IMG/VR virus record: IMGVR_UViG_3300027708_003081 | Length of the DNA: 64,000 nucleotides | Source: a virus | Taxonomy: Duplodnaviria; Heunggongvirae; Uroviricota; Caudoviricetes | Reading direction: 5' to 3' (one strand) | Position numbers and translations under genes: made by a program | In this document: in pieces, positions 483-58,926 of the stretch | Layout: each line of letters opens with the position of its first letter | How positions within the stretch are numbered: position 1 is the stretch's first letter | Notes under the pieces: generated by a model | The model's input: the letters and a program-made list of their open reading frames with translations, nothing else | Told to the model about the DNA's origin: nothing | The model's database searches: none

Positions 483-1278
483 TAATTATAGGATAATTTT
501 GAGTGGCTCAAGTAGTAAAGAAATTACAATACCTATCGAATTGGATTGGGATTTTGCAGGTCAAGACCAATCAATTGAAATATATGAGGAGGAGGTGGTA
601 AAACAAGTTATTGGTACTGGATATGATTTTGAGGTGGATAGATTTCCACACGATGTTGAACCAACAACAAATAAAACAGAAATAAATTATGAGTTTTATT
701 TTTATTCAGGAGGACCCTTAAATAATTTATCAAGTTGGAATAATAGTTATTTTTCACAAGGGTTTTTAACAAAAGAAATATATTATTTTACAAATGATTT
801 TACAAAGTCATTTTTTAAATTGGATTTTTACGATACGGTGGATGAGAAAAGACAAACTAACTATATAACAATTATTATACCGACACAACAAGGATATAAA
901 ACTACTGCTCTTTTGAATAATAAACCAGTTGAAATTAAAAAGCCAAAATTTACTTTGGATTATATTGGAGATAAAGAAGGGTTTTTTATTTATTGGTTGA
1001 AGAGTTTGGAATTTTTAAACATTAATACATTTTATATGAGTGCCAAATTTTATAATGCAAAAACAGGAGTGTTTACAAAAATGATGAATAAACCACAATC
1101 ATCATTAGCGGCGGGGGAGGAAAATAGTTTTGATGCTACTGATAATTTTTACTATAGAGTTGTTTGTGATTATGTGAATAAAGTGTATCGCGTATATAGA
1201 TTTAACACAAATACAAATGTGAATCAAAGGGTTGGAACAACAACACCCATAACTTGGTATCAATATGTAAACCCATAA
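472..1278 (+). CDS. hypothetical virion-associated protein
   Basis: ORF track 268 aa; ATG verified; part of packed co-directional array of large genes. Confidence 0.55.
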   Translation: MAVNNYRIILSGSSSKEITIPIELDWDFAGQDQSIEIYEEEVVKQVIGTGYDFEVDRFPHDVEPTTNKTEINYEFYFYSGGPLNNLSSWNNSYFSQGFLTKEIYYFTNDFTKSFFKLDFYDTVDEKRQTNYITIIIPTQQGYKTTALLNNKPVEIKKPKFTLDYIGDKEGFFIYWLKSLEFLNINTFYMSAKFYNAKTGVFTKMMNKPQSSLAAGEENSFDATDNFYYRVVCDYVNKVYRVYRFNTNTNVNQRVGTTTPITWYQYVNP

Positions 1279-6272: not shown

Positions 6273-8414
6273 ATGGAAACTTTTGGTTTAAATTATAATG
6301 TTATATTGACGGGAGACTGTTCTTCAACAAACTCAGGTGCAATAATCATTATTCCAAATGGAGGGACACCAAAATATAATGTACAGTGGTTGGACCCTGA
6401 TTTAGGTGTAGATGCAAGTACAGACTTATCTTCAAGAACAGGACTTAGTGCCGGTACATATACAATACTTATAACAGACTCATCGGCACCTACTAATAAT
6501 CAAATATTTGTTAATGTACCTGTTTCAAGCGGTGTTTCTTGTTTTTTAACAAGTGTAACAAATACAACTTGTGATTTAAATAATGGAACTGCAACAGTTA
6601 GTAGTTCTTCCAATTTTTCTTATACCGAAATTTATCTATACAATTCAGACAATACTTATGTTACTTCATCAACAACAAGTGTAAACAACACAACATTCCA
6701 AAATCTTACTGCAGGAACTTATTATATGATTGCTCAAGATTTAGGAGGATGTACAGGAAGAAGTGAGAGTTTTATCATAGAAAAATCGCCAACACTTGAT
6801 TACGGATTATATGTTGTTCCAAACGCCGCGTGTGGATATACACCAATTGGTAAGATTTATGTAACAGGATTAACGGGAACACCACCATATACGTATAAGT
6901 GGAACACAGGTGATGAGACAAATTATATTACAGGATTAACTGCCGGAGATTATAGTGTTGATGTTAGAGATTATTATAATTGCTCTGTTATAAAATCGGG
7001 AACCATAGTAAATTTAAATCCCGTCCAACTTGTTGCATTCACAGCAAATCCTCCCTCTTGTTTAACTAATGATGGTAGTTTAACGGTTCAGTTAACTGGA
7101 GGAACACCACCATACTATTACTCGGCATCTACGGGATATGTTGAAATTTCTTATTTAAGTACATTTACATTAGAAAATATTGGTGCTGGACCATATACAG
7201 TTCAAGTAACAGATGCCGCTTTCTGTAGTGATTCAATTGGAACTACTTTGAATACACCATCAGGTATGACATCCGTTAATATTGAAACAAAAAATACAAA
7301 TTGTTCTTTCTCCGAAGGTGCGATAACCGTATCAATTCAGGGTGGAAACAATCCTTTTTTATATTCATTAACTTATCCTGATTTGTCAGTTAAGGAGGTT
7401 AATACTGATTTAATGTATAATTTATTTTCAAATTTATCTGCAGGGACTTATAACTTATCTGTTTCGGACTCTTCTGGTTGTACTTATATGAATGATTATA
7501 CGATTTATAATCAAGAATCCTTTTCAATATCTGCGGTTTCTACATCAGCAACTTACGGTCAAAAAAACGGGACAGTTACGGTTACAAAATCAACAGGGGG
7601 TACAGAACCATATGCTTATATATTAGACAATAAAACTAGTATTTCAAATAGTATATTATCTGCAGTTACGTTTTATGATTTATCTTCAGGACAACACGAA
7701 GTTGTTGTGGTGGATTCGGTGGGGTGTAAACAAAATGTTAATGTGTATGTGGAGTATGTTCCGGTTGTAGATTTTTTATTAATACCAACAACCGCAGGTT
7801 CAAATAGTGGAGGAACAATAACTGCTCTTATATCCTCAGGTAAACCACCATTTACGTATAGTTGGTCTGATAACGTAATGGATAACCCACAAACAATAAC
7901 TGTCACAGGATTAACTGCAGGTACGTATAGTTTGATTGTTATTGACTCAAATGGGTCATCTTTGAAAAGAACCACAACAATCAACGGAAGTACTTCTTTT
8001 GATTCATATCAATCTTATACTGTTGGAGAACAAACATTTGAATTAATTACAAATACAAAATATAGTTTATCAAAAATGTTAAATGAGGGATTCCAAGATT
8101 TAACATCTGGAGAAACGGGATGTAATTTATCTTCCGCAACATTTACCACAAGAGTAAAGGTTAACCCACTTAGTCCTGAAGTAACTGAAGTATTTTATAC
8201 AACATATTCATTACTTGATGTACCTCAAGATAACTTATTTTATAATTCAATACAAAATTTATTATCAAGTTCAATTGGTGTTGGTGAGGTAATCATAGAT
8301 GAAATCAATAATGAAATAACAATTTTGAGTGATGCTGGCAGACAAGATTTGGTTTCATCACTTGATGTAAAAGTTTATTTGACTATAGATTATGATATTT
8401 ATTGTACAGGATGA
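6273..8414 (+). CDS. SprB-type Ig-like repeat protein (structural/adhesin-like)
   Basis: At least six ~80-aa repeats carry the signature GG(T/N)xP(Y/F)xY..W ... LTAG(T/D)Y ... D..GC, e.g. TGLTGTPPYTYKWNTGDETNYITGLTAGDYSVDVRDYYNCS and GGTPPYYYSAS. This is the hallmark of Bacteroidetes SprB repeats. Confidence 0.65.
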   Translation: METFGLNYNVILTGDCSSTNSGAIIIIPNGGTPKYNVQWLDPDLGVDASTDLSSRTGLSAGTYTILITDSSAPTNNQIFVNVPVSSGVSCFLTSVTNTTCDLNNGTATVSSSSNFSYTEIYLYNSDNTYVTSSTTSVNNTTFQNLTAGTYYMIAQDLGGCTGRSESFIIEKSPTLDYGLYVVPNAACGYTPIGKIYVTGLTGTPPYTYKWNTGDETNYITGLTAGDYSVDVRDYYNCSVIKSGTIVNLNPVQLVAFTANPPSCLTNDGSLTVQLTGGTPPYYYSASTGYVEISYLSTFTLENIGAGPYTVQVTDAAFCSDSIGTTLNTPSGMTSVNIETKNTNCSFSEGAITVSIQGGNNPFLYSLTYPDLSVKEVNTDLMYNLFSNLSAGTYNLSVSDSSGCTYMNDYTIYNQESFSISAVSTSATYGQKNGTVTVTKSTGGTEPYAYILDNKTSISNSILSAVTFYDLSSGQHEVVVVDSVGCKQNVNVYVEYVPVVDFLLIPTTAGSNSGGTITALISSGKPPFTYSWSDNVMDNPQTITVTGLTAGTYSLIVIDSNGSSLKRTTTINGSTSFDSYQSYTVGEQTFELITNTKYSLSKMLNEGFQDLTSGETGCNLSSATFTTRVKVNPLSPEVTEVFYTTYSLLDVPQDNLFYNSIQNLLSSSIGVGEVIIDEINNEITILSDAGRQDLVSSLDVKVYLTIDYDIYCTG

Positions 8415-23851: not shown

Positions 23852-23881
23852 TTTGCGGTAACAAAAAAAGGAGTATCTTTG
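23852..23881 (+). promoter_or_regulatory. Bacteroidetes sigma-A type promoter (TTTG -33, TATCTTTG -7)
   Basis: TTTG 23852-55, TATCTTTG 23874-81, spacing 18; ATG at 23901. Confidence 0.55.
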
Positions 23882-27892: not shown

Positions 27893-27924
27893 TTTGGCTG
27901 GTATTCTGGAAAGGTATATCTTTG
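27893..27924 (+). promoter_or_regulatory. Bacteroidetes sigma-A type promoter
   Basis: TTTG 27893-96, TATCTTTG 27917-24, spacing 20. Confidence 0.55.
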
Positions 27925-27945: not shown

Positions 27946-28131
27946 ATGAATAAGATATACAAAATGATGTTGAAATTAAAACAATCAATTTGCTCTCACC
28001 GTTGGGAGGAGATATGGGTTTATGGATGGACTGCTGATTACCGATGCACACGTTGCAAAAAACACGGAAAAGGATGGTACGGCGACAAAAAACCTTTAAA
28101 AAAGTTAAATAAACTTTTGGCAGTTAAATAA
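27946..28131 (+). CDS. small zinc-ribbon protein
   Basis: Track start 27922 is TTG lying in the -7 box; ATG at 27946; C-x-H...C-x2-C. Confidence 0.4.
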   Translation: MNKIYKMMLKLKQSICSHRWEEIWVYGWTADYRCTRCKKHGKGWYGDKKPLKKLNKLLAVK

Positions 28132-28147
28132 TAACCCCTTATCTTTG
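28116..28147 (+). promoter_or_regulatory. Bacteroidetes sigma-A type promoter
   Basis: TTTGGCAG 28116-23, TATCTTTG 28140-47, spacing 20. Confidence 0.55.
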
Positions 28148-28169: not shown

Positions 28170-28346
28170 ATGACCAAAACAATTTCATTCAAGAAAGGAA
28201 CAACAGTAAGAGTTTTAATGGGAGAACACGCTGGACAATTGGCCGTAGTTATTAGAAGCACTAAATTTCATGTGGTTTGTCAATCACCCAATCAACTTTA
28301 TCAATGGTGTTACCTTAAAACTCAACTTGAGAAATTGGAAAGTTAA
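28170..28346 (+). CDS. small hypothetical protein (58 aa, below ORF-track cutoff)
   Basis: ATG 22 nt downstream of the promoter -7 box; translated by eye MTKTISFKKGTTVRVLMGEHAGQLAVVIRSTKFHVVCQSPNQLYQWCYLKTQLEKLES. Confidence 0.35.
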   Translation: MTKTISFKKGTTVRVLMGEHAGQLAVVIRSTKFHVVCQSPNQLYQWCYLKTQLEKLES

Positions 28347-28353
28347 AAAAACT

Positions 28354-28385
28354 TTTGGTAGAACCAAAATAACCCCTTATCTTTA
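28354..28385 (+). promoter_or_regulatory. Bacteroidetes sigma-A type promoter (TATCTTTA variant)
   Basis: TTTG 28354-57, TATCTTTA 28378-85, spacing 20. Confidence 0.5.
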
Positions 28386-28406
28386 CATTCTAAAACAATC
28401 AAATAT

Positions 28407-28883
28407 ATGACAACAACTACCACCACCCCAACAACAACAGTAATTAACCTTACAACTGGCACTATGGCTGGCGACGTATTCTACGGAACGTACAATACAA
28501 TGGTTAAAGGAAAACCTTGTCGTATTATGGTGTCTAATCACCTTAAAGAAGATAAACAATATGAGTTCCGTGTGGCGGCTAAATGTCAGGCAGGATTCAT
28601 CAATATCTCTGATTGGACTACAACACCGAAAGAAGTTATTTCAGGATTCAAGAAAAATTCTTTGGTTAACATTCAAGTGAAACACACCTACGATAACGGA
28701 AAAATTACTTGGATGAATGTATTCACAACCAAAGGTGGCAAATGGTATTCTATTGATAAAGGATTTTTGGATGTATTGACTGTAGGTGATATGAGACAAT
28801 CACATCCTGATATGTGTGATATGGAGTTGTGGGGTAGAATGGGTGCTAAAACTTGGGCGGACAAAGCGTTCGTTCAGAACTAA
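28407..28883 (+). CDS. hypothetical protein
   Basis: 158 aa; ATG verified; promoter upstream. Confidence 0.5.
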   Translation: MTTTTTTPTTTVINLTTGTMAGDVFYGTYNTMVKGKPCRIMVSNHLKEDKQYEFRVAAKCQAGFINISDWTTTPKEVISGFKKNSLVNIQVKHTYDNGKITWMNVFTTKGGKWYSIDKGFLDVLTVGDMRQSHPDMCDMELWGRMGAKTWADKAFVQN

Positions 28884-28889
28884 AAATAT

Positions 28890-29019
28890 AGTCAGGTGGC
28901 GAGAGGTACACGCACCGAAACATTGGAATAGGTTCTGCCATGAACCTCAAACAACGGAGTATCTGCTTTAACCAATGTGCTGATGGATACTATCACAGGT
29001 TCAAATCCTGTACTGGCTA
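28890..29019 (+). tRNA. oversized tRNA-like gene, copy 1 (~130 nt)
   Basis: 5' AGTCAGG pairs with 3' ACTGGCT (6/7). Canonical T-arm ACAGG-TTCAAAT-CCTGT. D-arm-like GCG-AGAGGTACA-CGC. Core is far too long for a standard cloverleaf. Overlaps the 5' part of track ORF 28940..29482. Confidence 0.4.
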
Positions 29020-29029
29020 CAAAAAACTT

Positions 29030-29482
29030 ATGAAAAAACTTCTATATAAAATCTTTAATTGTAAAAAACAAAAAATAAAAACTATGGTAGGAAAAAAAGT
29101 AAAATTACAACCAACGCCTAAGGGTAAACGAAAGTCGGGCAACCCAAATCTTACAAGTTCTATTGGATTCACTATTACCGCTTGTTATAATGAAAATCCT
29201 AAAGCTTGGGTTATTAGTTTTGATAATGGCACCGAAGCCGGATGGGTATATGAGTGGGAAATGATTGACTACAAAGTTACTCTTGAAGAACTCCGTGATG
29301 AGTATACAGAAAAGGAAAATCAAATGAAAGAAATTGGTGTCAAAATTGAATGGATGGAAGAAACTAACTCAACTGAATTTAACGAAAACGAGTTTAAGGT
29401 GTATCAGACCCTGAAGTTATTTGAAAACAAGGAACTGACAATGGTTGAAAAGAGTAGATTAATTGCCAATTTAATAAAATAA
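29030..29482 (+). CDS. hypothetical protein (start re-assigned downstream of tRNA-like element)
   Basis: In-frame ATG at 29030 (alternative 29084), just after the tRNA-like element that overlaps the track start 28940. Confidence 0.4.
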   Translation: MKKLLYKIFNCKKQKIKTMVGKKVKLQPTPKGKRKSGNPNLTSSIGFTITACYNENPKAWVISFDNGTEAGWVYEWEMIDYKVTLEELRDEYTEKENQMKEIGVKIEWMEETNSTEFNENEFKVYQTLKLFENKELTMVEKSRLIANLIK

Positions 29483-29590
29483 AAGTTATGAAAATAGTGT
29501 TAATAATAATCGGAGTGATGTTAGTTGTTAAATTAGCCTTTTTTATGGCAGAGGTTCACGGAAAAAGTCCTAAATAAAAAAATAAAAGTT

Positions 29591-29902
29591 ATGGTACAAT
29601 ACAGAATAATAGAAAACAAATGGGTAGATAGTCACGGTAAATTATTCACCGGAAAAACTCACTATACCATAATGTATAAAAGAAAGTTTTTGTTTTTGGG
29701 CTACTGGGAAACTGTAAAGCACGTAGTCGAAAACCCTGATTGTAGTGTGGTAGAAAGATTACATGGCGGTACTGGTAGATTGGTACCAACCAAATTTAAT
29801 TCACTCTTGGAAGCTAAAGAATTCGCGGAAAACTATGTTGCAAAAGGTATAGAAACAAATAGATGGGTTAATAAAATTGTGCTTTCCAACGCATTACAAT
29901 AA
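29591..29902 (+). CDS. hypothetical protein
   Basis: 103 aa; ATG verified. Confidence 0.45.
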   Translation: MVQYRIIENKWVDSHGKLFTGKTHYTIMYKRKFLFLGYWETVKHVVENPDCSVVERLHGGTGRLVPTKFNSLLEAKEFAENYVAKGIETNRWVNKIVLSNALQ

Positions 29903-29912
29903 AAAAACAAAT

Positions 29913-30017
29913 AGTCAGGTGGCGGAATGGTAGACGCAACGAAAGTAGAGAAAGATGGCCCAATCCTTTTAGGAGCGAATAAGCTACTCTGTACAAGTTC
30001 AAATCTTGTCCTGGCTA
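29913..30017 (+). tRNA. oversized tRNA-like gene, copy 2 (~105 nt)
   Basis: AGTCAGG/CCTGGCT 7-bp acceptor helix (one G-U); D-arm GCG-GAATGGTAGA-CGC; T-arm ACAAG-TTCAAAT-CTTGT; discriminator A. Confidence 0.4.
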
Positions 30018-30031
30018 CAAAATTAAAAACT

Positions 30032-30136
30032 ATGGAAGTATTGATTATGTTTATTGTAATTGCAATTGGATTTGCTTGGGCGTGGCCTGAAGAAGAAATA
30101 GAAGAACTTGATAAACGTCTTGGTAAAAAGAAATAA
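30032..30136 (+). CDS. possible 34-aa membrane peptide (doubtful)
   Basis: MEVLIMFIVIAIGFAWAWPEEEIEELDKRLGKKK; the part of track ORF 29927..30136 that lies downstream of the tRNA-like element. Confidence 0.2.
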   Translation: MEVLIMFIVIAIGFAWAWPEEEIEELDKRLGKKK

Positions 30137-30139
30137 AAT

Positions 30140-30275
30140 AGTCAGGTGGGCGTAATGAGGGAAGGTACCCGAGTCCCCAAGATTGGCGGTTACCGACACT
30201 AGGGTGGCCGTTGCGTCGTAAGGTTGTCTAATCCGTCTTGAACGGTATTCGGTTCGAGTCCGACCCTGGCTACCC
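30140..30275 (+). tRNA. oversized tRNA-like gene, copy 3 (~133 nt)
   Basis: Same AGTCAGG/CCTGGCT acceptor halves; T-loop GGTTCGAGTCC; 3' ...CTGGCTACCC. Confidence 0.4.
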
Positions 30276-30329
30276 TATATAATTAGACTTTTTTGTACAT
30301 AGTGCATATTTATATAGAAATGTATAGAT

Positions 30330-30959
30330 ATGCCTAGAAAACAAAAAACAATTCATTATCTCTATAAAACCACTTGTTTGATTACGGATAAATATTATAT
30401 AGGAATGCACAGCACCAGTAATCTTGAAGATGGTTATATGGGAAGCGGAAAACGTCTCAGATATAGTATAAGGAAATATGGTAAAGAAAACCACGTTAAA
30501 GAGATACTAGAGTTCTTTGATTCAAGAGAGAGTTTAGTTGAAGCTGAAAAGCATTTGGTAACGAAAGATTTAATCAGTCAAGAAAATTGTATTAACTTAA
30601 AAGAAGGTGGAACAGGCGGTTTTTCAAGCGATGAACATCGTAAAAAATTTTTTGAGACTACGAATGTTAAGAATTCTCATGATAGAATTAAATGGTTAAG
30701 AGAAAATGACTTAGAGTGGTATTATAAATGGATTGACAAAATCAAAGATGGTAGGAAAACTGGAAAGTACAACCCGAGTTTTTTAAATAAAAAACATTCT
30801 GATACATCTCGAAAAAAAATTAGTGAGTCATTGAAGGGGTTAGGTATTGGTGCTCGTAATTCGCAATATGGTACTAAGTGGATAACCAACGGTGTAAAGT
30901 GTAAAAAAATAAAAAAAGAAGACCCGATATCAGAAGGTTGGCATTTGGGTAGAAAATAA
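30330..30959 (+). CDS. GIY-YIG homing endonuclease with NUMOD3-like C-terminal motifs
   Basis: IHYLYK...DKYYIGMHS...GYMGSGKRLRYSIRKYGKENHVKEILEFF (GIY-YIG core with the Y.GSG / KYG.ENF subfamily pattern); C-terminal HSDTSRKKISESLKG. Confidence 0.75.
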   Translation: MPRKQKTIHYLYKTTCLITDKYYIGMHSTSNLEDGYMGSGKRLRYSIRKYGKENHVKEILEFFDSRESLVEAEKHLVTKDLISQENCINLKEGGTGGFSSDEHRKKFFETTNVKNSHDRIKWLRENDLEWYYKWIDKIKDGRKTGKYNPSFLNKKHSDTSRKKISESLKGLGIGARNSQYGTKWITNGVKCKKIKKEDPISEGWHLGRK

Positions 30960-30971
30960 AAAACATATAAT

Positions 30972-31172
30972 ATGGAAATAGGAGATTGGATTGAATATCC
31001 CGGACACGACAAGGCTTGGATTGGGTGGGAAACGACAAGTTCGTATCTAATATACAGGATTAAAAATGTCCTCAATGAGGAAGGTAAAACTTCACAAACT
31101 TGGTTATACAAACAATTAGAATTAGAGTGGATATTAAAAACTGATTTTAATTATAAAACAAAAAACATATAA
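30972..31172 (+). CDS. small hypothetical protein
   Basis: 66 aa; ATG verified. Confidence 0.4.
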   Translation: MEIGDWIEYPGHDKAWIGWETTSSYLIYRIKNVLNEEGKTSQTWLYKQLELEWILKTDFNYKTKNI

Positions 31173-31173
31173 T

Positions 31174-31458
31174 ATGGAAGAAAAATTAACACCAACAGAA
31201 AGAGTAATTGCAATTGCATTATTCACAATCGTATTCCTTGCATTGTTGTCGGGACTTGTAAGTTGTAGCCAACCGGTACTTAATAAGAATGAATATGTTA
31301 TAGTAGATACGTTAAATGTGTCGCGTAATGGATTTGGAAAGGTTCTTGAATATGAAGTGATTGTTGAGATTGATAGTTCTTATCATTATGGGACTATTAA
31401 CGGAGATGGAGAACTAACGAATATTAATATAAAAAAGATTAAAAAAGAAATAAAATAA
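31174..31458 (+). CDS. small membrane-anchored protein
   Basis: 94 aa; N-terminal TM IAIALFTIVFLALLSGLV. Confidence 0.4.
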   Translation: MEEKLTPTERVIAIALFTIVFLALLSGLVSCSQPVLNKNEYVIVDTLNVSRNGFGKVLEYEVIVEIDSSYHYGTINGDGELTNINIKKIKKEIK

Positions 31459-31460
31459 AT

Positions 31461-31491
31461 TTTGGCAGAACCAAAATTATCCTTATCTTTG
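31461..31491 (+). promoter_or_regulatory. Bacteroidetes sigma-A type promoter
   Basis: TTTGGCAG 31461-68, TATCTTTG 31484-91, spacing 19; ATG 31520. Confidence 0.55.
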
Positions 31492-32564: not shown

Positions 32565-32879
32565 ATGAGGATTTTAATAACAGAGAATCAAATGAGGAAA
32601 GTTCAGTTTAAGTATTTGGATTACTTATTTGAGGGTATGTATGAGGTGGAATCAAAAAAATTTCGGGGTTCAAGATTTTGGAAGAAAGGAGATAAGGTAA
32701 TATTAGAATTGGGAAAATCAGGTAGATTATGGGTTTTACATTCAATTTGGAGAAATATTTCCAATATGTTTTCATTAGATTATAATGAAATTAAACAACT
32801 TATAAAAGATTGGGCGGAACAACATTTAGAATTGGAGGGGGTAATACCACACGAACACGGAAAGGATATTGATTTCTAA
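32565..32879 (+). CDS. tandem-paralog family A, member 1
   Basis: MRILITENQMRKVQFKYLDYLFEG...; shares >50% identity by eye with the next two genes. Confidence 0.5.
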   Translation: MRILITENQMRKVQFKYLDYLFEGMYEVESKKFRGSRFWKKGDKVILELGKSGRLWVLHSIWRNISNMFSLDYNEIKQLIKDWAEQHLELEGVIPHEHGKDIDF

Positions 32880-32905
32880 ATGGGACAACATTTAAAATAA
32901 AAATT

Positions 32906-33241
32906 ATGAAGATTTTAATTACGGAAAATCAAATTAGAAGACTGCAGTTTAAGTATTTGGATTACTTATTTGATGGGATGAGTGAGATTAAATCCACAAA
33001 ATATCCTGGTGACATACGTTGGAAAAAAGATGGTAAAATAATATTAGAATTGGGAAGAACAGGAAAATTTTGGGTTTTATATTCAATTTGGGATAATATA
33101 TCAAATATGTTTTCATTAGATTATGATGAAACTCAACAACTTATAAAAGAATGGGTGGAACAACATTTAGAATTGAAGGATATAACACCAAAAACTAATA
33201 AATTCAGGGTTCCGGTTCTGGTGGAAGGGCGTTTAAAATAA
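32906..33241 (+). CDS. tandem-paralog family A, member 2
   Basis: MKILITENQIRRLQFKYLDYLFDG... Confidence 0.5.
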   Translation: MKILITENQIRRLQFKYLDYLFDGMSEIKSTKYPGDIRWKKDGKIILELGRTGKFWVLYSIWDNISNMFSLDYDETQQLIKEWVEQHLELKDITPKTNKFRVPVLVEGRLK

Positions 33242-33246
33242 AAATT

Positions 33247-33576
33247 ATGAAGATTTTAATAACGGAGAATCAGTTAAGGAAAGTTGAGTTTAAGTTTTTG
33301 AATTACTTATTTGACGGCATATATGAAGTTGAATTAAATGAGTATCCGGATTTAAGATTTTGGAAAAAAGATAATAGGGTGGTGTTAGAATTGGAAAAAT
33401 CAGGTAATTTAATAGTTTCAATTTCAATTTGGGAAAATATTTCCAATATGTTTTCGTTAGATTATGATGAAACTAAACAACTTATAAAAGACTGGGCTGA
33501 ACAACATTTAGAATTGGAGGGAATTACACCACTAATGGCGTGGGTTTCTAATGAAGAATGGTGGAAAAACATTTAA
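33247..33576 (+). CDS. tandem-paralog family A, member 3
   Basis: MKILITENQLRKVEFKFLNYLFDG... Confidence 0.5.
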   Translation: MKILITENQLRKVEFKFLNYLFDGIYEVELNEYPDLRFWKKDNRVVLELEKSGNLIVSISIWENISNMFSLDYDETKQLIKDWAEQHLELEGITPLMAWVSNEEWWKNI

Positions 33577-35087: not shown

Positions 35088-35119
35088 TTTGGCTGGTAAT
35101 TTATTATTTCATATCTTTG
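35088..35119 (+). promoter_or_regulatory. Bacteroidetes sigma-A type promoter
   Basis: TTTGGCTG 35088-95, TATCTTTG 35112-19, spacing 20; ATG 35141. Confidence 0.55.
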
Positions 35120-37291: not shown

Positions 37292-37492
37292 ATGATTTAC
37301 GAAGCAGAATACACAATTAAAATCAAGTTGGATAAGTTATTTATGCCACCCGGACATTCATCTGATGAATTACAAGAAGAAATAAAATTAAGAGGTGCTG
37401 AAAACCTGAAAAGATATTTTAACGGAGTTTTATTTGAACCCGAAAAAAAGATTATCTTTGAGGAAATCAATTTTGAACTTATAAAACCATAG
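37292..37492 (+). CDS. small hypothetical protein
   Basis: Track start 37274 is TTG within previous gene; ATG 37292. Confidence 0.4.
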   Translation: MIYEAEYTIKIKLDKLFMPPGHSSDELQEEIKLRGAENLKRYFNGVLFEPEKKIIFEEINFELIKP

Positions 37493-46566: not shown

Positions 46567-47367
46567 ATGAAAGATAAAAATCAGTTAATTCCTATAAATC
46601 AGGAAGAAATCTCGTCTTATTTAAAAGACATTAGAAAACTTAAAGTGATGACACCCGACAGAGAGAGGGAGTTAGCTAAATTAATGTTATCGGGTCGTCT
46701 TGATGATAGCCAGCGTGAAGAAATCAAAAAAGAGTTACTTGAGGGTAATTTGAGGTTTGTGATTACAGTTAGTAAGCAGTATCAAAACCAAGGGTTGGAA
46801 TTATGTGATTTAATCTCTGAAGGTAATTATGGGTTATTAAGGGCGATTGAGAGTTTTGATTGGTCCAAGAACTTAAGATTTATATCTTACGCGGTTTGGT
46901 GGGTTAGACAAGCAATCTTACAGTCTCTTAACGAAAACGCAAGAACCATTAGATTTCCTGTGAATGTGGTTCAAGACTATCAAAAGGCCAAAAAAGAACA
47001 AGATATTACTGGCTTGGATTTACCCGATAAATTTACAAATCTACCTTATACTGTTAATTTAGATAATCCATTAAATGAAGAGGGCGATACACTATTAGAC
47101 GTTATTGTTAATCCAAATGCCGATAGACCTGAGGCGGGATTCTCAACAGAAGAAACTCTTAAAGAAAAGTTAATGTCAATTCTTAACATATTGGATGATA
47201 GAGAAAAAGTTATAATTGAAGACTATTTTGGTTTAACTGGTAGTTCAAGAACTCTTGAAGACATTGGGAATGATTTTGATTTAACTAAAGAGAGAGTCCG
47301 ACAGATAAAAGAGAAGGCACTACGGAAACTTCGGAATGAGTCAAGTATACTTTTTGACTATATGTAA
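46567..47367 (+). CDS. sigma-70 family RNA polymerase sigma factor (regions 2-4)
   Basis: Region 2: LRFVITVSKQYQNQGLELCDLISEGNYGLLRAIESFDWSKNLRFISYAVWWVRQAI. Region 4.2: LEDIGNDFDLTKERVRQIKEKALRKLR. Confidence 0.85.
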   Translation: MKDKNQLIPINQEEISSYLKDIRKLKVMTPDRERELAKLMLSGRLDDSQREEIKKELLEGNLRFVITVSKQYQNQGLELCDLISEGNYGLLRAIESFDWSKNLRFISYAVWWVRQAILQSLNENARTIRFPVNVVQDYQKAKKEQDITGLDLPDKFTNLPYTVNLDNPLNEEGDTLLDVIVNPNADRPEAGFSTEETLKEKLMSILNILDDREKVIIEDYFGLTGSSRTLEDIGNDFDLTKERVRQIKEKALRKLRNESSILFDYM

Positions 47368-55224: not shown

Positions 55225-56142
55225 ATGAAAAATTACTATGAAATTTTAGGAATTGAAGAGAATTCTTCTCCAGAAGAAATAAAAAAAGCATATAGGAAAC
55301 TTGCAGTTCAATATCACCCTGATAAAGGTGGGGATGAAAACAAGTTTAAAGAGATTAATGAAGCTTATGAAGTGCTCGGTGATGAACAAAAAAAGGCTCA
55401 ATATAATAATCAAAAGAATAACCCGTATGGTGGAACAGGATTTGAGGATTTGTTTGCAAGTATGTTTGGTGGGGGAAATCCTTTCGCTCAACAGAGAAGA
55501 CAACCAACCGCGCCCCCAAAGATTATAAAACTAAAAATAAATCCAATTGAATCTTATTTGGGTTCGGAGAGAACTATCCATTATGTTAAGGAAACTCAGT
55601 GTATGGGTTGTCTTGGAGGTGGTGGAGAACAACAAGCGTGCGGAACCTGTAGAGGTAGTGGGTTTGTTGTTAAAACATTTGGAACAGGGTTTATGGTTCA
55701 ACAAGTTAGAAGTGCTTGTGATACTTGTGGTGGTAGAGGATATACGTTAGTTCATAGATGTAATAAATGTAATGGAAAGGGAACAAAATCTGAGGCACAA
55801 GAGATAAACATTAAAATACCTGTGGGTTCTGATAACGGGCAGTATATGAAACTACAGAGTTATGGTGATTATAATAATGGCGCGTATGGTGATTTGGTAA
55901 TCCAAGTTGAACTTGAACCTCAAGACGGGTATGAGAAGATGAATAATGATTTAATTTATAACTTATATCTTAATTTGGAAGAAGCCAATAGTGAGACATA
56001 TAGAATTCCACACCCAAGTGGAGATTTAAACACCACGGCTCCAAAACTATTTGATAGCTCAAAGCCTTTGAGATTAAAAGGTAAGGGATATAATGGGGGA
56101 GATATGTATGTTAAACTCCACGTAAGGTTTGAAAGAAATTAA
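55225..56142 (+). CDS. dnaJ: DnaJ-family co-chaperone
   Basis: J domain with HPD (YYEILGI...YHPDKGGDENKFKEINEAYEVL), G/F region, and four CxxCxGxG zinc-finger repeats (CMGCLGGG, CGTCRGSG, CDTCGGRG, CNKCNGKG). Confidence 0.85.
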   Translation: MKNYYEILGIEENSSPEEIKKAYRKLAVQYHPDKGGDENKFKEINEAYEVLGDEQKKAQYNNQKNNPYGGTGFEDLFASMFGGGNPFAQQRRQPTAPPKIIKLKINPIESYLGSERTIHYVKETQCMGCLGGGGEQQACGTCRGSGFVVKTFGTGFMVQQVRSACDTCGGRGYTLVHRCNKCNGKGTKSEAQEINIKIPVGSDNGQYMKLQSYGDYNNGAYGDLVIQVELEPQDGYEKMNNDLIYNLYLNLEEANSETYRIPHPSGDLNTTAPKLFDSSKPLRLKGKGYNGGDMYVKLHVRFERN

Positions 56143-58894: not shown

Positions 58895-58926
58895 TTTGGC
58901 AGTTTGAATAGAACCAATTATCTTTG
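58895..58926 (+). promoter_or_regulatory. Bacteroidetes sigma-A type promoter
   Basis: TTTGGCAG 58895-902, TATCTTTG 58919-26, spacing 20; ATG 58946. Confidence 0.55.

What the first reader, a model, noticed from the sequence alone, without database searches (positions are those of the whole stretch)
28890..30959. Three oversized tRNA-like genes with identical acceptor-stem halves, interleaved with small ORFs and followed by a GIY-YIG homing endonuclease
Elements at 28890-29019, 29913-30017 and 30140-30275 all begin AATAGTCAGGTGG and end (C/A)CTGGCTAC(CC). AGTCAGG pairs with CCTGGCT to give a 7-bp acceptor-like helix. Each has a textbook T-arm (GGTTCAAATCC, AGTTCAAATCT, GGTTCGAGTCC) and a D-arm-like GCG-N9/10-CGC. 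The cores are 105-133 nt, too long for any canonical tRNA including class II. Copy 1 contains an extra long helix (ACATTGG...CCAATGT enclosing AGGTTC-TGCCAT-GAACCT). They could be intron-containing or otherwise interrupted tRNAs, tRNA-derived structured RNAs, or decoys/targets linked to the adjacent GIY-YIG endonuclease (30330..30959). Homing endonucleases sit in the tRNA cluster of T4-like phages. The ORF-track proteins 28940..29482 and 29927..30136 begin inside these elements and are probably mis-started.
Basis: seen in the sequence. Interest (0 to 1): 0.7.

Follow-up and report, generated by a model that had tools for sequence, protein, structure and literature searches.

The report
Phage tRNA-like RNAs without anticodons
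Three neighbouring genes in a phage genome encode oversized tRNA look-alikes that keep the top half of a tRNA but replace the anticodon part with exchangeable structured modules. They belong to a large family found so far only in viral and metagenome contigs, for which I found no description and whose role is unknown.

Summary
Three + strand elements (28890-29020, 29913-30018, 30140-30273) share the acceptor AGUCAGG/CCUGGCU, an A73-C74 end and a textbook T arm, which no shuffle reproduced. They are not decoding tRNAs: ARAGORN and Rfam find nothing in the window, and none has an anticodon arm.

They belong to a large family. Exact-pattern scans hit hundreds of viral and metagenome contigs, often inside phage tRNA clusters and in arrays of up to about 12. 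They hit none of 185,579 prokaryotic species genomes (only the G70/UGG form was tested) and none of 50,697 deposited phage records.

Elements 1 and 2 have a tRNA-Leu-like D arm with a 55-80 nt structured "cargo" where the anticodon and variable arms would be. Element 3 is an expanded member of a second, covariation-supported fold ("type K").

The scaffold is conserved and its helices covary. The cargo is hypervariable (132 classes among 169 cargos). It is conserved between phages whose flanks do not align, yet replaced between close relatives.

The endonuclease is a mobile insertion that starts exactly at the 3' end of element 3.

Most likely these are tRNA-processed, non-decoding RNAs with exchangeable modules. 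Their function is not shown; a role in phage-host conflict is a guess. I found no prior description.

The parts
28890..29020 (+). Element 1 (131 nt to C74), Leu-type scaffold. Acceptor AGUCAG(G)/(A)CUGGCU, D arm GCG-AGAGGUACA-CGC, T arm ACAGG-UUCAAAU-CCUGU, then A73 C74. The 80-nt cargo has a helix ACAUUGG/CCAAUGU, an inner hairpin AGGUUC-UGCCAU-GAACCU and a pseudoknot AGUAUC:GAUACU.
   Evidence: Homologues in L330 and L045. The structure count gives 97.6% of cells paired and 5 compensatory double changes, including the long helix and the pseudoknot.
29913..30018 (+). Element 2 (106 nt), Leu-type scaffold. D arm GCG-GAAUGGUAGA-CGC, rare T arm ACAAG-UUCAAAU-CUUGU. The 55-nt cargo has a probable stem AGUAG/CUACU around the hairpin AAAGAU-GGCCCA-AUCCUUU.
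   Evidence: The orthologous scaffold in L025 (same T arm) carries an unrelated cargo: 50.8% identity against 50.2% for shuffles. The cargo fold is predicted only, because no diverged homologue was found.
30140..30273 (+). Element 3 (134 nt), expanded 'type K' scaffold. Acceptor, P2 (GGGC:GUCU), a D-like hairpin H1 with tandem G.A pairs and GG in its loop, H2 expanded by about 45 nt, an extra hairpin CCGU-CUUGA-ACGG before the T arm, and a 4-pair T stem.
   Evidence: The 5' motif CAGGTGGGYGTAATGAG occurs in 96 viral stretches. The fold of the 75-85 nt basic form gives 97.2% of cells paired, 7 pairs with double changes, and 0 of 500 shuffles reaching the covariation score. The covariance model R1 hits element 3 in two pieces, 24.2 and 19.8 bits, and nothing else credible in the window.
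30274..31150 (+). Mobile cassette: homing-endonuclease ORF 30330-30959 plus most of the 66-aa ORF 30972-31172. It is absent from near-identical contigs.
   Evidence: L280 is 99.97% identical to the window up to 30273, and again from 31151 (99.45%). It has 67 nt in place of these 877 nt, and L283 (99.85%) also diverges after 30273. phrog_314 homing endonuclease at 1.9e-38, and NUMOD3.
28407..28883 (+). Upstream ORF (158 aa, ...AFVQN*) that anchors the syntenic slot. Its stop codon lies 6 nt before element 1.
   Evidence: No Pfam or PHROG hit.
29030..29482 (+). ORF between elements 1 and 2 (150 aa from 29030, or 132 aa from 29084). The 180-aa version starting at 28940 begins inside element 1.
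   Evidence: JGI gene calls of 150 and 132 aa. No family hit.
29489..29902 (+). A small hydrophobic 29-aa ORF (29489-29578) and a 103-aa ORF (29591-29902).
   Evidence: The 29-aa ORF is conserved in L005.
30032..30136 (+). A 34-aa hydrophobic ORF between elements 2 and 3. The 69-aa version starting at 29927 begins inside element 2.
28339..28395 (+). Promoter-like repeat (TTTGG-N-TATCTTT(G/A)) upstream of the operon that holds the three elements. The next copy is at 31451-31491.
   Evidence: No copy lies between 28400 and 31450, and there is no excess of sigma-70-type promoters or terminators.

Best explanation
The three elements are genes for non-decoding, tRNA-derived structured RNAs. They belong to a large family found only in viral and metagenome contigs.

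Each keeps the tRNA 'top half':
- a 7-pair acceptor stem with an A73-C74 end;
- a T arm;
- a D-type arm with GG in its loop, which could form the elbow;
- U8, and U48 in the Leu-type.

The anticodon and variable region is replaced by a family-specific structured module, the 'cargo'. Elements 1 and 2 use a tRNA-Leu-like D arm. Element 3 uses a second core fold, type K, with two expansions.

Proposed mechanism:
1. The elements are co-transcribed with the flanking + strand ORFs. (Inferred: no promoter motif lies between 28400 and 31450.)
2. They are cut out by the tRNA maturation enzymes, RNase P at the 5' end and RNase Z or exonucleases plus the CCA-adding enzyme at the 3' end. (Inferred from the conserved minihelix and elbow, and from their place in tRNA arrays.)
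3. They accumulate as stable L-shaped RNAs that cannot read codons. (Shown to the extent that no anticodon arm exists.)
4. The tRNA frame acts as a processing, stability and docking platform, and the exchangeable module provides the specific activity. The module moves between phages by recombination within the conserved scaffold ends. (Supported by the sequence comparisons.)
5. The biological role is most likely trans-acting binding or decoy activity in phage-host conflict. (Speculative.)

My confidence differs by step: about 0.9 that these are tRNA-derived RNA genes, 0.85 that they do not decode, 0.7 for tRNA-type processing, 0.5 that the cargo is the specific functional part, and 0.3 for a role in phage-host conflict. 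The overall figure of 0.5 refers to steps 1-4 taken together.
For: Scaffold:
- Among 176 distinct oversized Leu-type members, every acceptor, T and D pair is kept, and the acceptor and T pairs show several pair types. For example 1:72 is AU 127, GC 29, UA 4, CG 2. A73 is present in 89%, C74 in 94%, U48 in 92%.
- An acceptor-agnostic scan still gave AGUCAGG in 36 of 78 distinct sequences. The other acceptors were fully compensated.

No decoding:
- ARAGORN found 0 tRNAs and Rfam 0 hits in the window.
- Only 1 of the members of 90 nt or more has a 5-pair, 7-nt anticodon arm.

tRNA context:
- The elements sit inside phage tRNA arrays on the same strand.
- Their 3' ends (A73-C74 followed by an A-rich trailer) resemble those of the normal tRNAs nearby.
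- Some members pass the Rfam tRNA gathering score.

Cargo is functional and modular:
- There are 132 non-redundant classes among 169 cargos.
- Cargos fold better than shuffles: mean z = -0.74, p = 3e-15.
- Between loci whose flanks do not align, only the element aligns, at about 90% identity including the cargo (L013 vs L122, L139 and L143; L112 vs L134; L003 vs L035).
- In the same slot of related phages (upstream flank 94% identical), the cargos are as dissimilar as shuffled sequence: 40-47% against 45%.
- The cargo of element 1 has compensatory changes in a helix and in a pseudoknot. The type K fold covaries.

Arrays: 4 elements in the 1.3-kb locus L025, and at least 12 in 5 kb in L037, next to 13 normal tRNAs with diverse acceptors.

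Distribution: 0 hits in 185,579 species genomes, and none in 50,697 deposited phage records.
Against: - There are no expression, processing or binding data.
- No target was found. The cargos of elements 1-3 show only chance-level complementarity to the 64-kb window. Cargos matched only other family members in 3.2 Mb of fetched DNA.
- A pure scaffold role does not explain why one acceptor sequence dominates and is shared by two different core folds.
- The basic type K form (75-81 nt) has almost no cargo, so part of the function must lie in the tRNA-like frame itself.
- Canonical-looking tRNA-Ile(GAU) and tRNA-Lys(UUU)-like genes share the same acceptor. The family therefore grades into possibly functional tRNAs.
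- Cargo identity between unrelated phages could reflect recent transfer rather than selection.
- All censuses rest on exact-match patterns, which inflate the apparent conservation.
- The genome scans tested only the G70/UGG form, so a host tRNA with the commoner A70 acceptor is not excluded.
Confidence: 0.5

Rival explanations
1. Aminoacylated but non-decoding tRNA mimics. The frame carries an identity, leucine for the Leu-type, so the RNAs are charged and used off the ribosome or as tmRNA-like adaptors. The cargo adds specificity.
For: The D arm GGUGGCGGAAUUGGUAGACGC matches the E. coli tRNA-Leu D arm as I recall it (memory, not tested here). A73 (89%) and U48 (92%) are kept. From established knowledge of E. 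coli LeuRS, the enzyme needs A73 and the tertiary core but neither the anticodon nor the variable arm. One acceptor sequence is shared by two core folds, as expected for an identity element.
Against: Type K lacks the Leu-type D arm, and its position 73 is either A or G. Position 3:70 varies between U-A, U-G and C-G, and there is no G3:U70. No tag ORF exists, and ARAGORN in tmRNA mode finds nothing. No aminoacylation data exist.
Confidence: 0.15
2. RNA punctuation. The elements exist mainly as RNase P and RNase Z cleavage sites that cut the polycistronic transcript and set the stability of the flanking small mRNAs. The excised RNA is a by-product.
For: The window's elements lie 3-12 nt after stop codons and in front of small ORFs, inside one promoter-less stretch from 28400 to 31450. 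Only the minihelix and elbow are conserved family-wide.
Against: Many members lie in pure RNA arrays with few or no ORFs between them (L025, L037). Cargo conserved at about 90% between otherwise unalignable phages, with compensatory changes, is not needed for punctuation.
Confidence: 0.1
3. A DNA-level phenomenon. These are decaying or remodelled paralogues of a phage tRNA gene. Their ends are kept uniform by gene conversion and homing-endonuclease-driven recombination, and the RNAs have no function of their own.
For: The endonuclease cassette abuts element 3 exactly, with a G70/A70 difference at the junction. An endonuclease lies beside the element in 4 loci. Cassette-like replacement occurs between conserved ends. 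Canonical-looking tRNA-Ile(GAU) genes carry the same acceptor.
Against: Compensatory changes in the acceptor, T, P2, H1 and cargo helices show selection on RNA structure. Cargos fold better than shuffles. Most loci have no endonuclease nearby. The tertiary-contact nucleotides (GG of the D loop, U8, U48) are kept.
Confidence: 0.1
4. Interrupted tRNA genes. The extra sequence is an intron, and splicing yields ordinary tRNAs.
For: Intron-permissive ARAGORN calls element 2 as tRNA-Ser(aga) with a 15-nt intron. It also of 176 Leu-type members.
Against: The element 2 model has a 4-pair A-U/G-U anticodon stem and a poor variable arm. Elements 1 and 3 and all type K members are never called. The 119 calls scatter over nearly all anticodons, including rare A34 ones, although the frame is Leu-type. 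The inserts are far too short for group I or II introns, and no intron family is hit. Some inserts lie in the D loop.
Confidence: 0.05
5. A miniature insertion element whose shared ends are terminal inverted repeats.
For: AGTCAGG and CCTGGCT are imperfect inverted repeats at the ends of each copy.
Against: The ends covary as RNA helices with many different sequences. Internal D and T arms are tRNA-standard. All copies share the strand of the neighbouring tRNAs. No target-site duplications are visible.
Confidence: 0.02

Closest known systems
Phage T4 species 1 RNA (rnaC) and species 2 RNA (rnaD)
   Same: Stable small RNAs encoded in a phage tRNA cluster next to a GIY-YIG homing endonuclease (segB). 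rnaC is 139 nt, with an acceptor-like pairing CGAUUCG/CGUUUCG, a textbook T arm CCGGGUUCGAAUCCCGG, a large non-tRNA interior and no anticodon. Its function is still unknown (from my own knowledge).
   Different: I saw no shared sequence when reading rnaC and rnaD, and rnaC has no Leu-type D arm. T4 has single copies. No family with exchangeable interiors or arrays has been described, and no shared acceptor class.
Class II tRNA-Leu
   Same: The D arm, U8, the GG of the D loop, U48, the T loop and A73 of elements 1 and 2 are tRNA-Leu-like. Genuine phage tRNA-Leu genes lie in the same clusters.
   Different: There is no anticodon arm and no regular variable arm. The acceptor differs from the real tRNA-Leu genes nearby. 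The window's copies fall below the Rfam tRNA threshold.
tmRNA tRNA-like domain
   Same: An acceptor plus T arm joined to a non-tRNA body through a helix that closes the interior, as in type K P2. No anticodon.
   Different: No G3:U70 and no tag reading frame. The size is 75-190 nt rather than more than 230 nt. Rfam tmRNA scores 9.7 bits against a gathering score of 47, and ARAGORN -m finds nothing.
Bacterial and phage Y-RNA-like YrlA
   Same: A modular RNA that combines a tRNA-mimicking module with another functional module, and is also found in phages (from my own knowledge).
   Different: In YrlA the RNA termini lie in the Ro-binding stem and the acceptor-like stem is closed by a loop, so the topology is permuted. 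It is linked to the rsr gene. No Rfam hit here.
Engineered 'tRNA scaffold' RNAs, and viral tRNA-linked RNAs such as the tRNA-miRNA genes of murine gammaherpesvirus 68
   Same: A tRNA frame is used to get a foreign RNA processed by tRNA enzymes and stabilised. In the engineered scaffold the insert replaces the anticodon arm, as it does here (from my own knowledge).
   Different: One is man-made and the other eukaryotic. Natural bacterial or phage examples with many interchangeable inserts have not, to my knowledge, been described.
Irregular tRNAs and allo-tRNA-like polycistrons from metagenomes (Mukai et al. 2017, as summarised in PMC7609411)
   Same: Arrays of non-canonical tRNA-like sequences of unknown use.
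   Different: Those have 8/4 or 9/3 acceptor/T geometry and keep their anticodon arms. Here the geometry is 7/5 (or 7/4 in type K) and the anticodon arm is missing.

Membership tests
tRNA (Rfam RF00005 / canonical cloverleaf) | 7-pair acceptor stem with a single discriminator base | tested here: met
   AGUCAGG/CCUGGCU plus A73 in all three elements, with 6 pairs plus G.A in element 1. The helix covaries across the family.
tRNA (Rfam RF00005 / canonical cloverleaf) | T arm: 5-pair stem and a 7-nt UUCRANY loop | tested here: met
   Elements 1 and 2 are canonical. Element 3 has 4 pairs plus U.C.
tRNA (Rfam RF00005 / canonical cloverleaf) | Anticodon arm: 5-pair stem and a 7-nt loop with U33, at positions 27-43 | tested here: not met
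   Absent in all three elements. Only 1 of the family members of 90 nt or more has one, and it has C33.
tRNA (Rfam RF00005 / canonical cloverleaf) | Score at or above the curated threshold, or a detector call | tested here: not met
   Rfam gathering search of the window gives 0 hits. ARAGORN gives 0. Some relatives do pass at 29.7-41.5 bits.
tRNA-Leu (class II) | Leu-type D arm and A73 | tested here: met
   Met by elements 1 and 2. Not met by element 3.
tRNA-Leu (class II) | Leu anticodon (NAG or NAA) and a regular long variable arm | tested here: not met
tRNA-Leu (class II) | Charging by LeuRS | not testable with these tools
   Needs an aminoacylation assay.
Intron-containing tRNA gene | Removing one contiguous insert restores a canonical tRNA of a consistent isotype | tested here: not met
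   ARAGORN -i calls only element 2, with a weak model. The family calls scatter over nearly all anticodons, and type K is never called.
Intron-containing tRNA gene | A recognisable group I or II intron core | tested here: not met
   No Rfam intron hits. The inserts are 38-117 nt.
tmRNA | G3:U70, a tag ORF with a resume codon, pseudoknots, and a detector call | tested here: not met
   Position 3:70 is U:G or U:A. ARAGORN -m gives none. Rfam tmRNA scores 9.7 bits against 47.
Type K tRNA-like fold (defined here) | UGGGYGUAAUGAG 5' core, P2 pairing 9-12 with GYUU before the T arm, a GG-loop hairpin with tandem G.A pairs, and a 4-pair T stem | tested here: met
   Element 3 carries all of these features. 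Model R1 hits it at 24.2 and 19.8 bits, split by its two expansions.
GIY-YIG homing endonuclease (free-standing, Seg-like) | Homology to homing endonucleases and a DNA-binding NUMOD module | tested here: met
   phrog_314 at E=1.9e-38. NUMOD3 at E=1.8e-5. A weak match to the I-TevI DNA-binding domain, 1i3j, at E=0.086. The Pfam GIY-YIG domain itself was not hit, and the motif was read by eye.
GIY-YIG homing endonuclease (free-standing, Seg-like) | Presence/absence polymorphism between otherwise identical genomes | tested here: met
   L280 and L283 lack window 30274-31150.
GIY-YIG homing endonuclease (free-standing, Seg-like) | Cleavage of the endonuclease-free allele near the insertion point | not testable with these tools
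   Needs an in vitro cleavage assay on L280-type DNA.
Miniature inverted-repeat element | Terminal inverted repeats with target-site duplication, and empty sites | tested here: not met
   No duplications flank the copies. The ends behave as covarying RNA helices.

The most novel reading that the evidence does not exclude
Phages carry arrays of 'tRNA-framed RNA cassettes'. A constant tRNA top half, often with the signature acceptor AGUCAGG/CCUGRCU, docks to one common tRNA-binding factor and ensures processing. Dozens to hundreds of interchangeable inner modules act as specific decoys, inhibitors or guides against host systems such as tRNA-targeting or RNA-sensing defences. The cassettes are shuffled between phages by recombination in the conserved halves, helped by homing endonucleases. 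This would be an RNA counterpart of anti-defence gene islands, organised like a repeat-and-variable-unit array.
Probability: 0.15. Interest if true: 0.9.

Novelty: new variant of a known kind. Interest (0 to 1): 0.75.

Why it matters
tRNA-like RNAs of unknown function have sat in phage tRNA clusters since T4 species 1 RNA was found in the 1970s (from my own knowledge).

This locus leads to a family with hundreds of members. It has a conserved, covarying tRNA frame, more than 130 different structured inserts, arrays of up to a dozen copies, and clear signs of horizontal exchange. That makes an old question testable. There are now defined RNAs, defined folds and natural variants to assay for processing, charging, binding partners and infection phenotypes.

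The finding has three practical consequences:
- Phage "tRNA counts" from ARAGORN and similar tools both miss these genes and mislabel them. Family members were called tRNA-Ser(gga), tRNA-Glu(ctc), tRNA-Asp(atc) and tRNA-Phe(aaa).
- Gene callers place false protein starts inside the elements.
- If the inserts prove to be functional modules carried on a natural tRNA scaffold, this would be a new principle of phage RNA biology and a ready source of stable RNA parts.

Tried and rejected
- Unconstrained MFE folding of the three elements is not better than shuffles (z = -1.26, +0.26, -0.68). It is uninformative for RNAs with tRNA-like tertiary folds.
- Rfam E-value mode on 28700-30500 gave only noise: PreQ1 on the T arm plus A-tail, and tmRNA at 9.7 bits.
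- blastn of the locus against 50,697 deposited phage records found no match. Scaffold consensus queries found only generic tRNA similarity or nothing.
- Clustering of neighbouring genes in about 62 loci found no protein family in more than 6 loci, so there is no obligate protein partner nearby.
- The cargos of elements 1-3 against the window gave chance-level hits only, so antisense action on the phage's own 64 kb is not supported.
- All cargos against 3.2 Mb of fetched DNA gave only other family members and a few short matches of 17-22 nt that I did not examine. I saw no clear protospacer-like source or target.
- No motif is common to all cargos. GUGGUA and GGUUCG are only mildly enriched.
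- Loop-to-tail pseudoknots are not enriched as a general feature (6 observed against 3.5 expected), although individual classes have them.
- A k-turn reading of GUAAUGA...GA with a GGGC:GUCC stem was rejected because it shows no covariation. P2 (GGGC:GCUU) is supported instead.
- An 8/4 'allo-tRNA' geometry for element 3 was rejected because position 8 is U opposite C.
- Comparison with the 97%-identical relative L029 has too few differences to measure constraint.
- Six literature searches, by sequence string and by keyword, returned no description of the family. Fremin et al. 2023 (PMC10690425) mention only generic tRNA-like candidates in IMG/VR.


Full report
**Observation.** The sequence shows three + strand elements at 28890-29020, 29913-30018 and 30140-30273.
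- Each begins (AT)AGTCAGGTGG and ends CTGGCTAC.
- Each has a T arm just before the 3' strand of a 7-pair acceptor helix.
- The composite pattern occurs 3 times against 0 in 100 shuffles.
- The 12-mer ATAGTCAGGTGG occurs 3 times against 0 expected.
- A relaxed scan of both strands found no further copy in the 64 kb.
- Details to correct: element 1 has a G7.A66 mismatch, the T stem of element 3 has 4 pairs plus U.C, and element 3 has no GCG...CGC D arm.

**They are not ordinary tRNAs.**
- ARAGORN finds no tRNA or tmRNA in the whole window.
- Rfam at gathering thresholds finds nothing, and E-value mode gives only noise.
- None of the three has a 5-pair, 7-nt anticodon arm.
- Intron-permissive ARAGORN calls only element 2, as tRNA-Ser(aga) with a 15-nt intron and a 4-pair A-U/G-U anticodon stem. 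I do not regard that model as credible.

**Genomic setting.**
- Nearly all large ORFs of the window are on the + strand.
- Recognisable proteins include an SbcC-like nuclease, a primase-like protein, a DNA methylase, a sigma-70 factor, DnaJ, a Band-7 protein and a protein with SprB repeats.
- Start codons lack Shine-Dalgarno sequences.
- A repeated intergenic motif, TTTGGCNG-N18-TATCTTTG, fits the Bacteroidota promoter consensus as I know it (TTTG...TAnnTTTG). It occurs at 23852, 27893, 28116, 31461, 35088, 37433 and 58895, with a variant at 28354, always on the + strand.
- I infer a phage of a Bacteroidota host.
- No copy of the motif lies between 28400 and 31450, and sigma-70-type promoters and terminators are at chance level there.
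- The three elements are therefore probably co-transcribed with the small ORFs around them.
- The ORF versions that start at 28940 and 29927 begin inside elements 1 and 2. In-frame ATGs at 29030 or 29084, and at 30032, are the likelier starts, and JGI gene calls use 29030 and 29084.

**A large family.** Exact-pattern scans returned the following.

| Pattern scanned | Collection | Result |
|---|---|---|
| Acceptor + T arm, gap 74-104 | viral contigs | 35 stretches |
| Acceptor + T arm, gap 43-73 | viral contigs | 29 stretches |
| 3' half only | viral contigs | 43 stretches |
| 5' core of element 3 | viral contigs | 96 stretches |
| Acceptor + T arm (G70/UGG form), gaps 74-104 and 40-70 | 185,579 prokaryotic species genomes | 0 |
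| Scaffold consensus queries | 50,697 deposited phage records | none |

- Only the G70/UGG form was tested in the genome scans, which is a stated limitation.
- In several loci the elements lie inside phage tRNA arrays on the same strand.
- They carry the same A73-C74, A-rich 3' ends as the ordinary tRNAs there.
- In L037, 13 normal tRNAs with diverse acceptors are followed by at least 12 AGUCAGG-type elements of 69-141 nt.
- L025 has four elements within a 1.3-kb locus.

**The scaffold is under structural selection.** Among 176 distinct Leu-type members of 90 nt or more:
- every acceptor pair shows several Watson-Crick types (for example 3:70 is UA 106, UG 44, AU 12, CG 10, GC 4);
- four of the five T-stem pairs show several pair types, and the D-stem pairs vary mainly on one side;
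- A73 is present in 89%, C74 in 94%, U48 in 92%;
- U8-G9, which the finder required, is present in all, and the D loop keeps its GG.

In the acceptor-agnostic set, 36 of 78 distinct sequences carry AGUCAGG. The rest carry unrelated but fully compensated acceptors. Only 1 member has a canonical anticodon arm.

**The inner module ('cargo') is hypervariable but not junk.**
- It spans 38-117 nt, with a median of 58.
- It falls into 132 non-redundant classes among 169 distinct cargos, with no common motif.
- It folds better than shuffles (mean z = -0.74, p = 3e-15).
- In 84 of 132 classes a helix of 5 or more pairs starts where the anticodon stem would. The median is 6 pairs with a 24-nt loop.
- Between loci whose flanks cannot be aligned, the element alone aligns at about 90% identity, cargo included (L013 vs L122, L139 and L143; L112 vs L134; L003 vs L035).
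- Conversely, the slot right after the ORF ending ...AFVQN* holds three unrelated cargos in the window, L005 and L025. Their identity is 40-47%, against 45% for shuffles, although the upstream flank is 94% identical.
- Element 2 and its L025 counterpart share the rare T arm ACAAGUUCAAAUCUUGU but have unrelated cargos (50.8% identity against 50.2% for shuffles).
- This is a cassette-like pattern. Whole modules are exchanged within conserved ends and move between phages.

**The three elements individually.**
- Element 1 has homologues in L330 and L045. The proposed fold has 97.6% of cells paired and five compensatory double changes. One is in the helix ACAUUGG/CCAAUGU and one in a pseudoknot AGUAUC:GAUACU.
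- Element 2 has no diverged homologue, so its cargo fold is only predicted.
- Element 3 belongs to a second scaffold, here called type K. Its basic form is 75-81 nt.
- The type K fold is: acceptor; P2 (GGGC:GCUU, with 12:58 as CG 19, UG 6, UA 5); a D-like hairpin with tandem G.A pairs and GG in the loop; a small hairpin H2; and a 4-pair T stem.
- That fold has 97.2% of cells paired, 7 pairs with double changes, and no shuffle reaching its covariation score.
- Larger type K forms carry expansions in H2 and before the T arm. Element 3 has both. A covariance model of the basic form hits it in two pieces.
- Type K and the Leu-type share the acceptor AGUCAGG/CCUGRCU and occur together in 22 of the fetched loci.

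**Relation to real tRNAs.**
- Metagenome contigs also hold canonical-looking tRNA-Ile(GAU) genes with this acceptor.
- They also hold near-canonical Lys(UUU)- and Arg(UCU)-like genes and many irregular forms of 68-82 nt.
- The acceptor (A1:U72, C4:G69, A73) is Ile-like, from general knowledge of tRNA-Ile.
- The family probably radiated from a phage tRNA gene and grades from possibly functional tRNAs to the anticodon-less forms seen in the window.

**The endonuclease.**
- ORF 30330-30959 matches homing-endonuclease PHROGs at 1.9e-38 and has a NUMOD3 motif.
- Contig L280 is 99.97% identical to the window up to 30273, the C74 of element 3, and resumes at 99.45% from 31151. It has 67 nt in place of the 877-nt cassette.
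- Contig L283 (99.85% identical) also diverges after 30273.
- The last difference before the junction is G70 in the window against A70 in L280.
- This is the behaviour of a free-standing homing endonuclease inserted next to a conserved target, as with T4 segB beside the T4 tRNA genes.
- An endonuclease neighbours the element in only 4 of about 62 loci, and no other protein family is consistently adjacent.

**Interpretation.** Three points are well supported:
- these are tRNA-derived RNA genes;
- they cannot decode;
- both the frame and the cargo are under structural constraint, and the cargo is exchangeable.

Maturation by RNase P, RNase Z and the CCA-adding enzyme is inferred. So is a division of labour in which the frame serves processing, stability and docking while the cargo gives specificity.

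A role in phage-host conflict is speculative. It rests on the array organisation, the turnover between relatives and the horizontal spread.

Two facts are unexplained by a pure scaffold model. One acceptor sequence dominates across two different folds, and the near cargo-less type K basic form exists. Both suggest that the frame itself is recognised by something specific.

**Closest known and novelty.**
- The closest natural analogue is T4 species 1 RNA (rnaC). It is 139 nt, with an acceptor-like stem, a T arm and a large interior. It lies in the tRNA cluster next to segB, and its function is unknown.
- tmRNA, YrlA and engineered tRNA scaffolds share the principle of a tRNA frame joined to another module, but they fail the membership tests.
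- Six literature searches found no description of this family. A 2023 survey lists only generic tRNA-like candidates in IMG/VR.
- I rate it a new variant of a known kind, with high interest for phage RNA biology.

Noticed in passing
window 23852-23881, 27893-27924, 28116-28147, 28354-28385 (variant), 31461-31491, 35088-35119, 37433-37460, 58895-58926, all + strand: A repeated intergenic motif TTTGGCNG-N18-TATCTTTG. It fits the Bacteroidota promoter consensus (-33 TTTG, -7 TAnnTTTG) and lies upstream of ORF starts. It is probably this phage's host-type promoters and supports a Bacteroidota host.
   Followed up: partly
window 30962-30974 and 31164-31176; also L005 about 1285-1300 and 1629-1643, and L025: The identical string AACATATAATATG, ending in the start codon, precedes two consecutive small ORFs and recurs in related phages. 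It may be a translation-initiation or regulatory signal.
   Followed up: partly
window 29489-29578 and 30032-30136; L005 1202-1294; L280 about 2895-2970: Very small hydrophobic ORFs (25-34 aa, for example MKIVLIIIGVMLVVKLAFFMAEVHGKSPK) are repeatedly interleaved with the tRNA-like elements in this phage group. The 29-aa one is conserved in L005.
   Followed up: no
L065 about 700-815, L075 about 1820-1933, L071 (minus strand, upstream of 12518): A conserved, apparently structured sequence of about 110 nt (...GGUGGAGUACCGAAUACGCAGAAACGAGAC...CUCCACC) lies immediately 5' of a 77-83 nt AGUCAGG-type element. It may be another unannotated RNA.
   Followed up: no
L025 about 1130-1160 (minus strand), and upstream of elements in L042, L069 and L072: A hairpin motif CAACACAGAGGAYUUCUCAUCCUCAA recurs just upstream of family members in several unrelated contigs.
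   Followed up: no
L007 1917-2046, L015 11610-11726, L030 3002-3109, L023 7561-7691, L063, L064, L074: Some Leu-type members also carry a hairpin inserted in the D loop, several with the shared motif GGGGUGUCC. This is a second insertion site that leaves the GG of the D loop intact.
   Followed up: partly
L094 13023-13125 and L023 7561-7691: Rare members keep a true 5-pair, 7-nt anticodon arm but with C33 instead of U33 (loops CCGCAAA and CCUAAAA), plus a very long variable arm. They may be intermediates between tRNA-Leu(UAA) and the anticodon-less forms.
   Followed up: no
L286, L294, L310, L319, L330, L366, L377, L401: A conserved 71-72 nt class with the same acceptor is called by ARAGORN 'tRNA-Stop(tta)' (loop UUUUACC or UUUUAUC). 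It could be an ochre-suppressor-like tRNA or just another irregular member.
   Followed up: no
L015 8770-8843, 9669-9745, 10000-10072: ARAGORN calls one tRNA-Pyl(cta) and two tRNAs with abnormal anticodon loops, reported as a 4-nt (ttag) and a 2-nt (ga) anticodon, in a contig that also holds family members.
   Followed up: no
window 32565-33576: Three consecutive ORFs of 104, 111 and 109 aa give overlapping, shifted BLAST alignments to single regions of L005 and L029. They look like tandem paralogues.
   Followed up: no
window 46567-47367, 55225-56142, 6273-8414: The phage encodes its own sigma-70 family factor, a full-length DnaJ, and a 713-aa protein with SprB repeats. The SprB repeat is named after the Flavobacterium gliding adhesin.
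   Followed up: no
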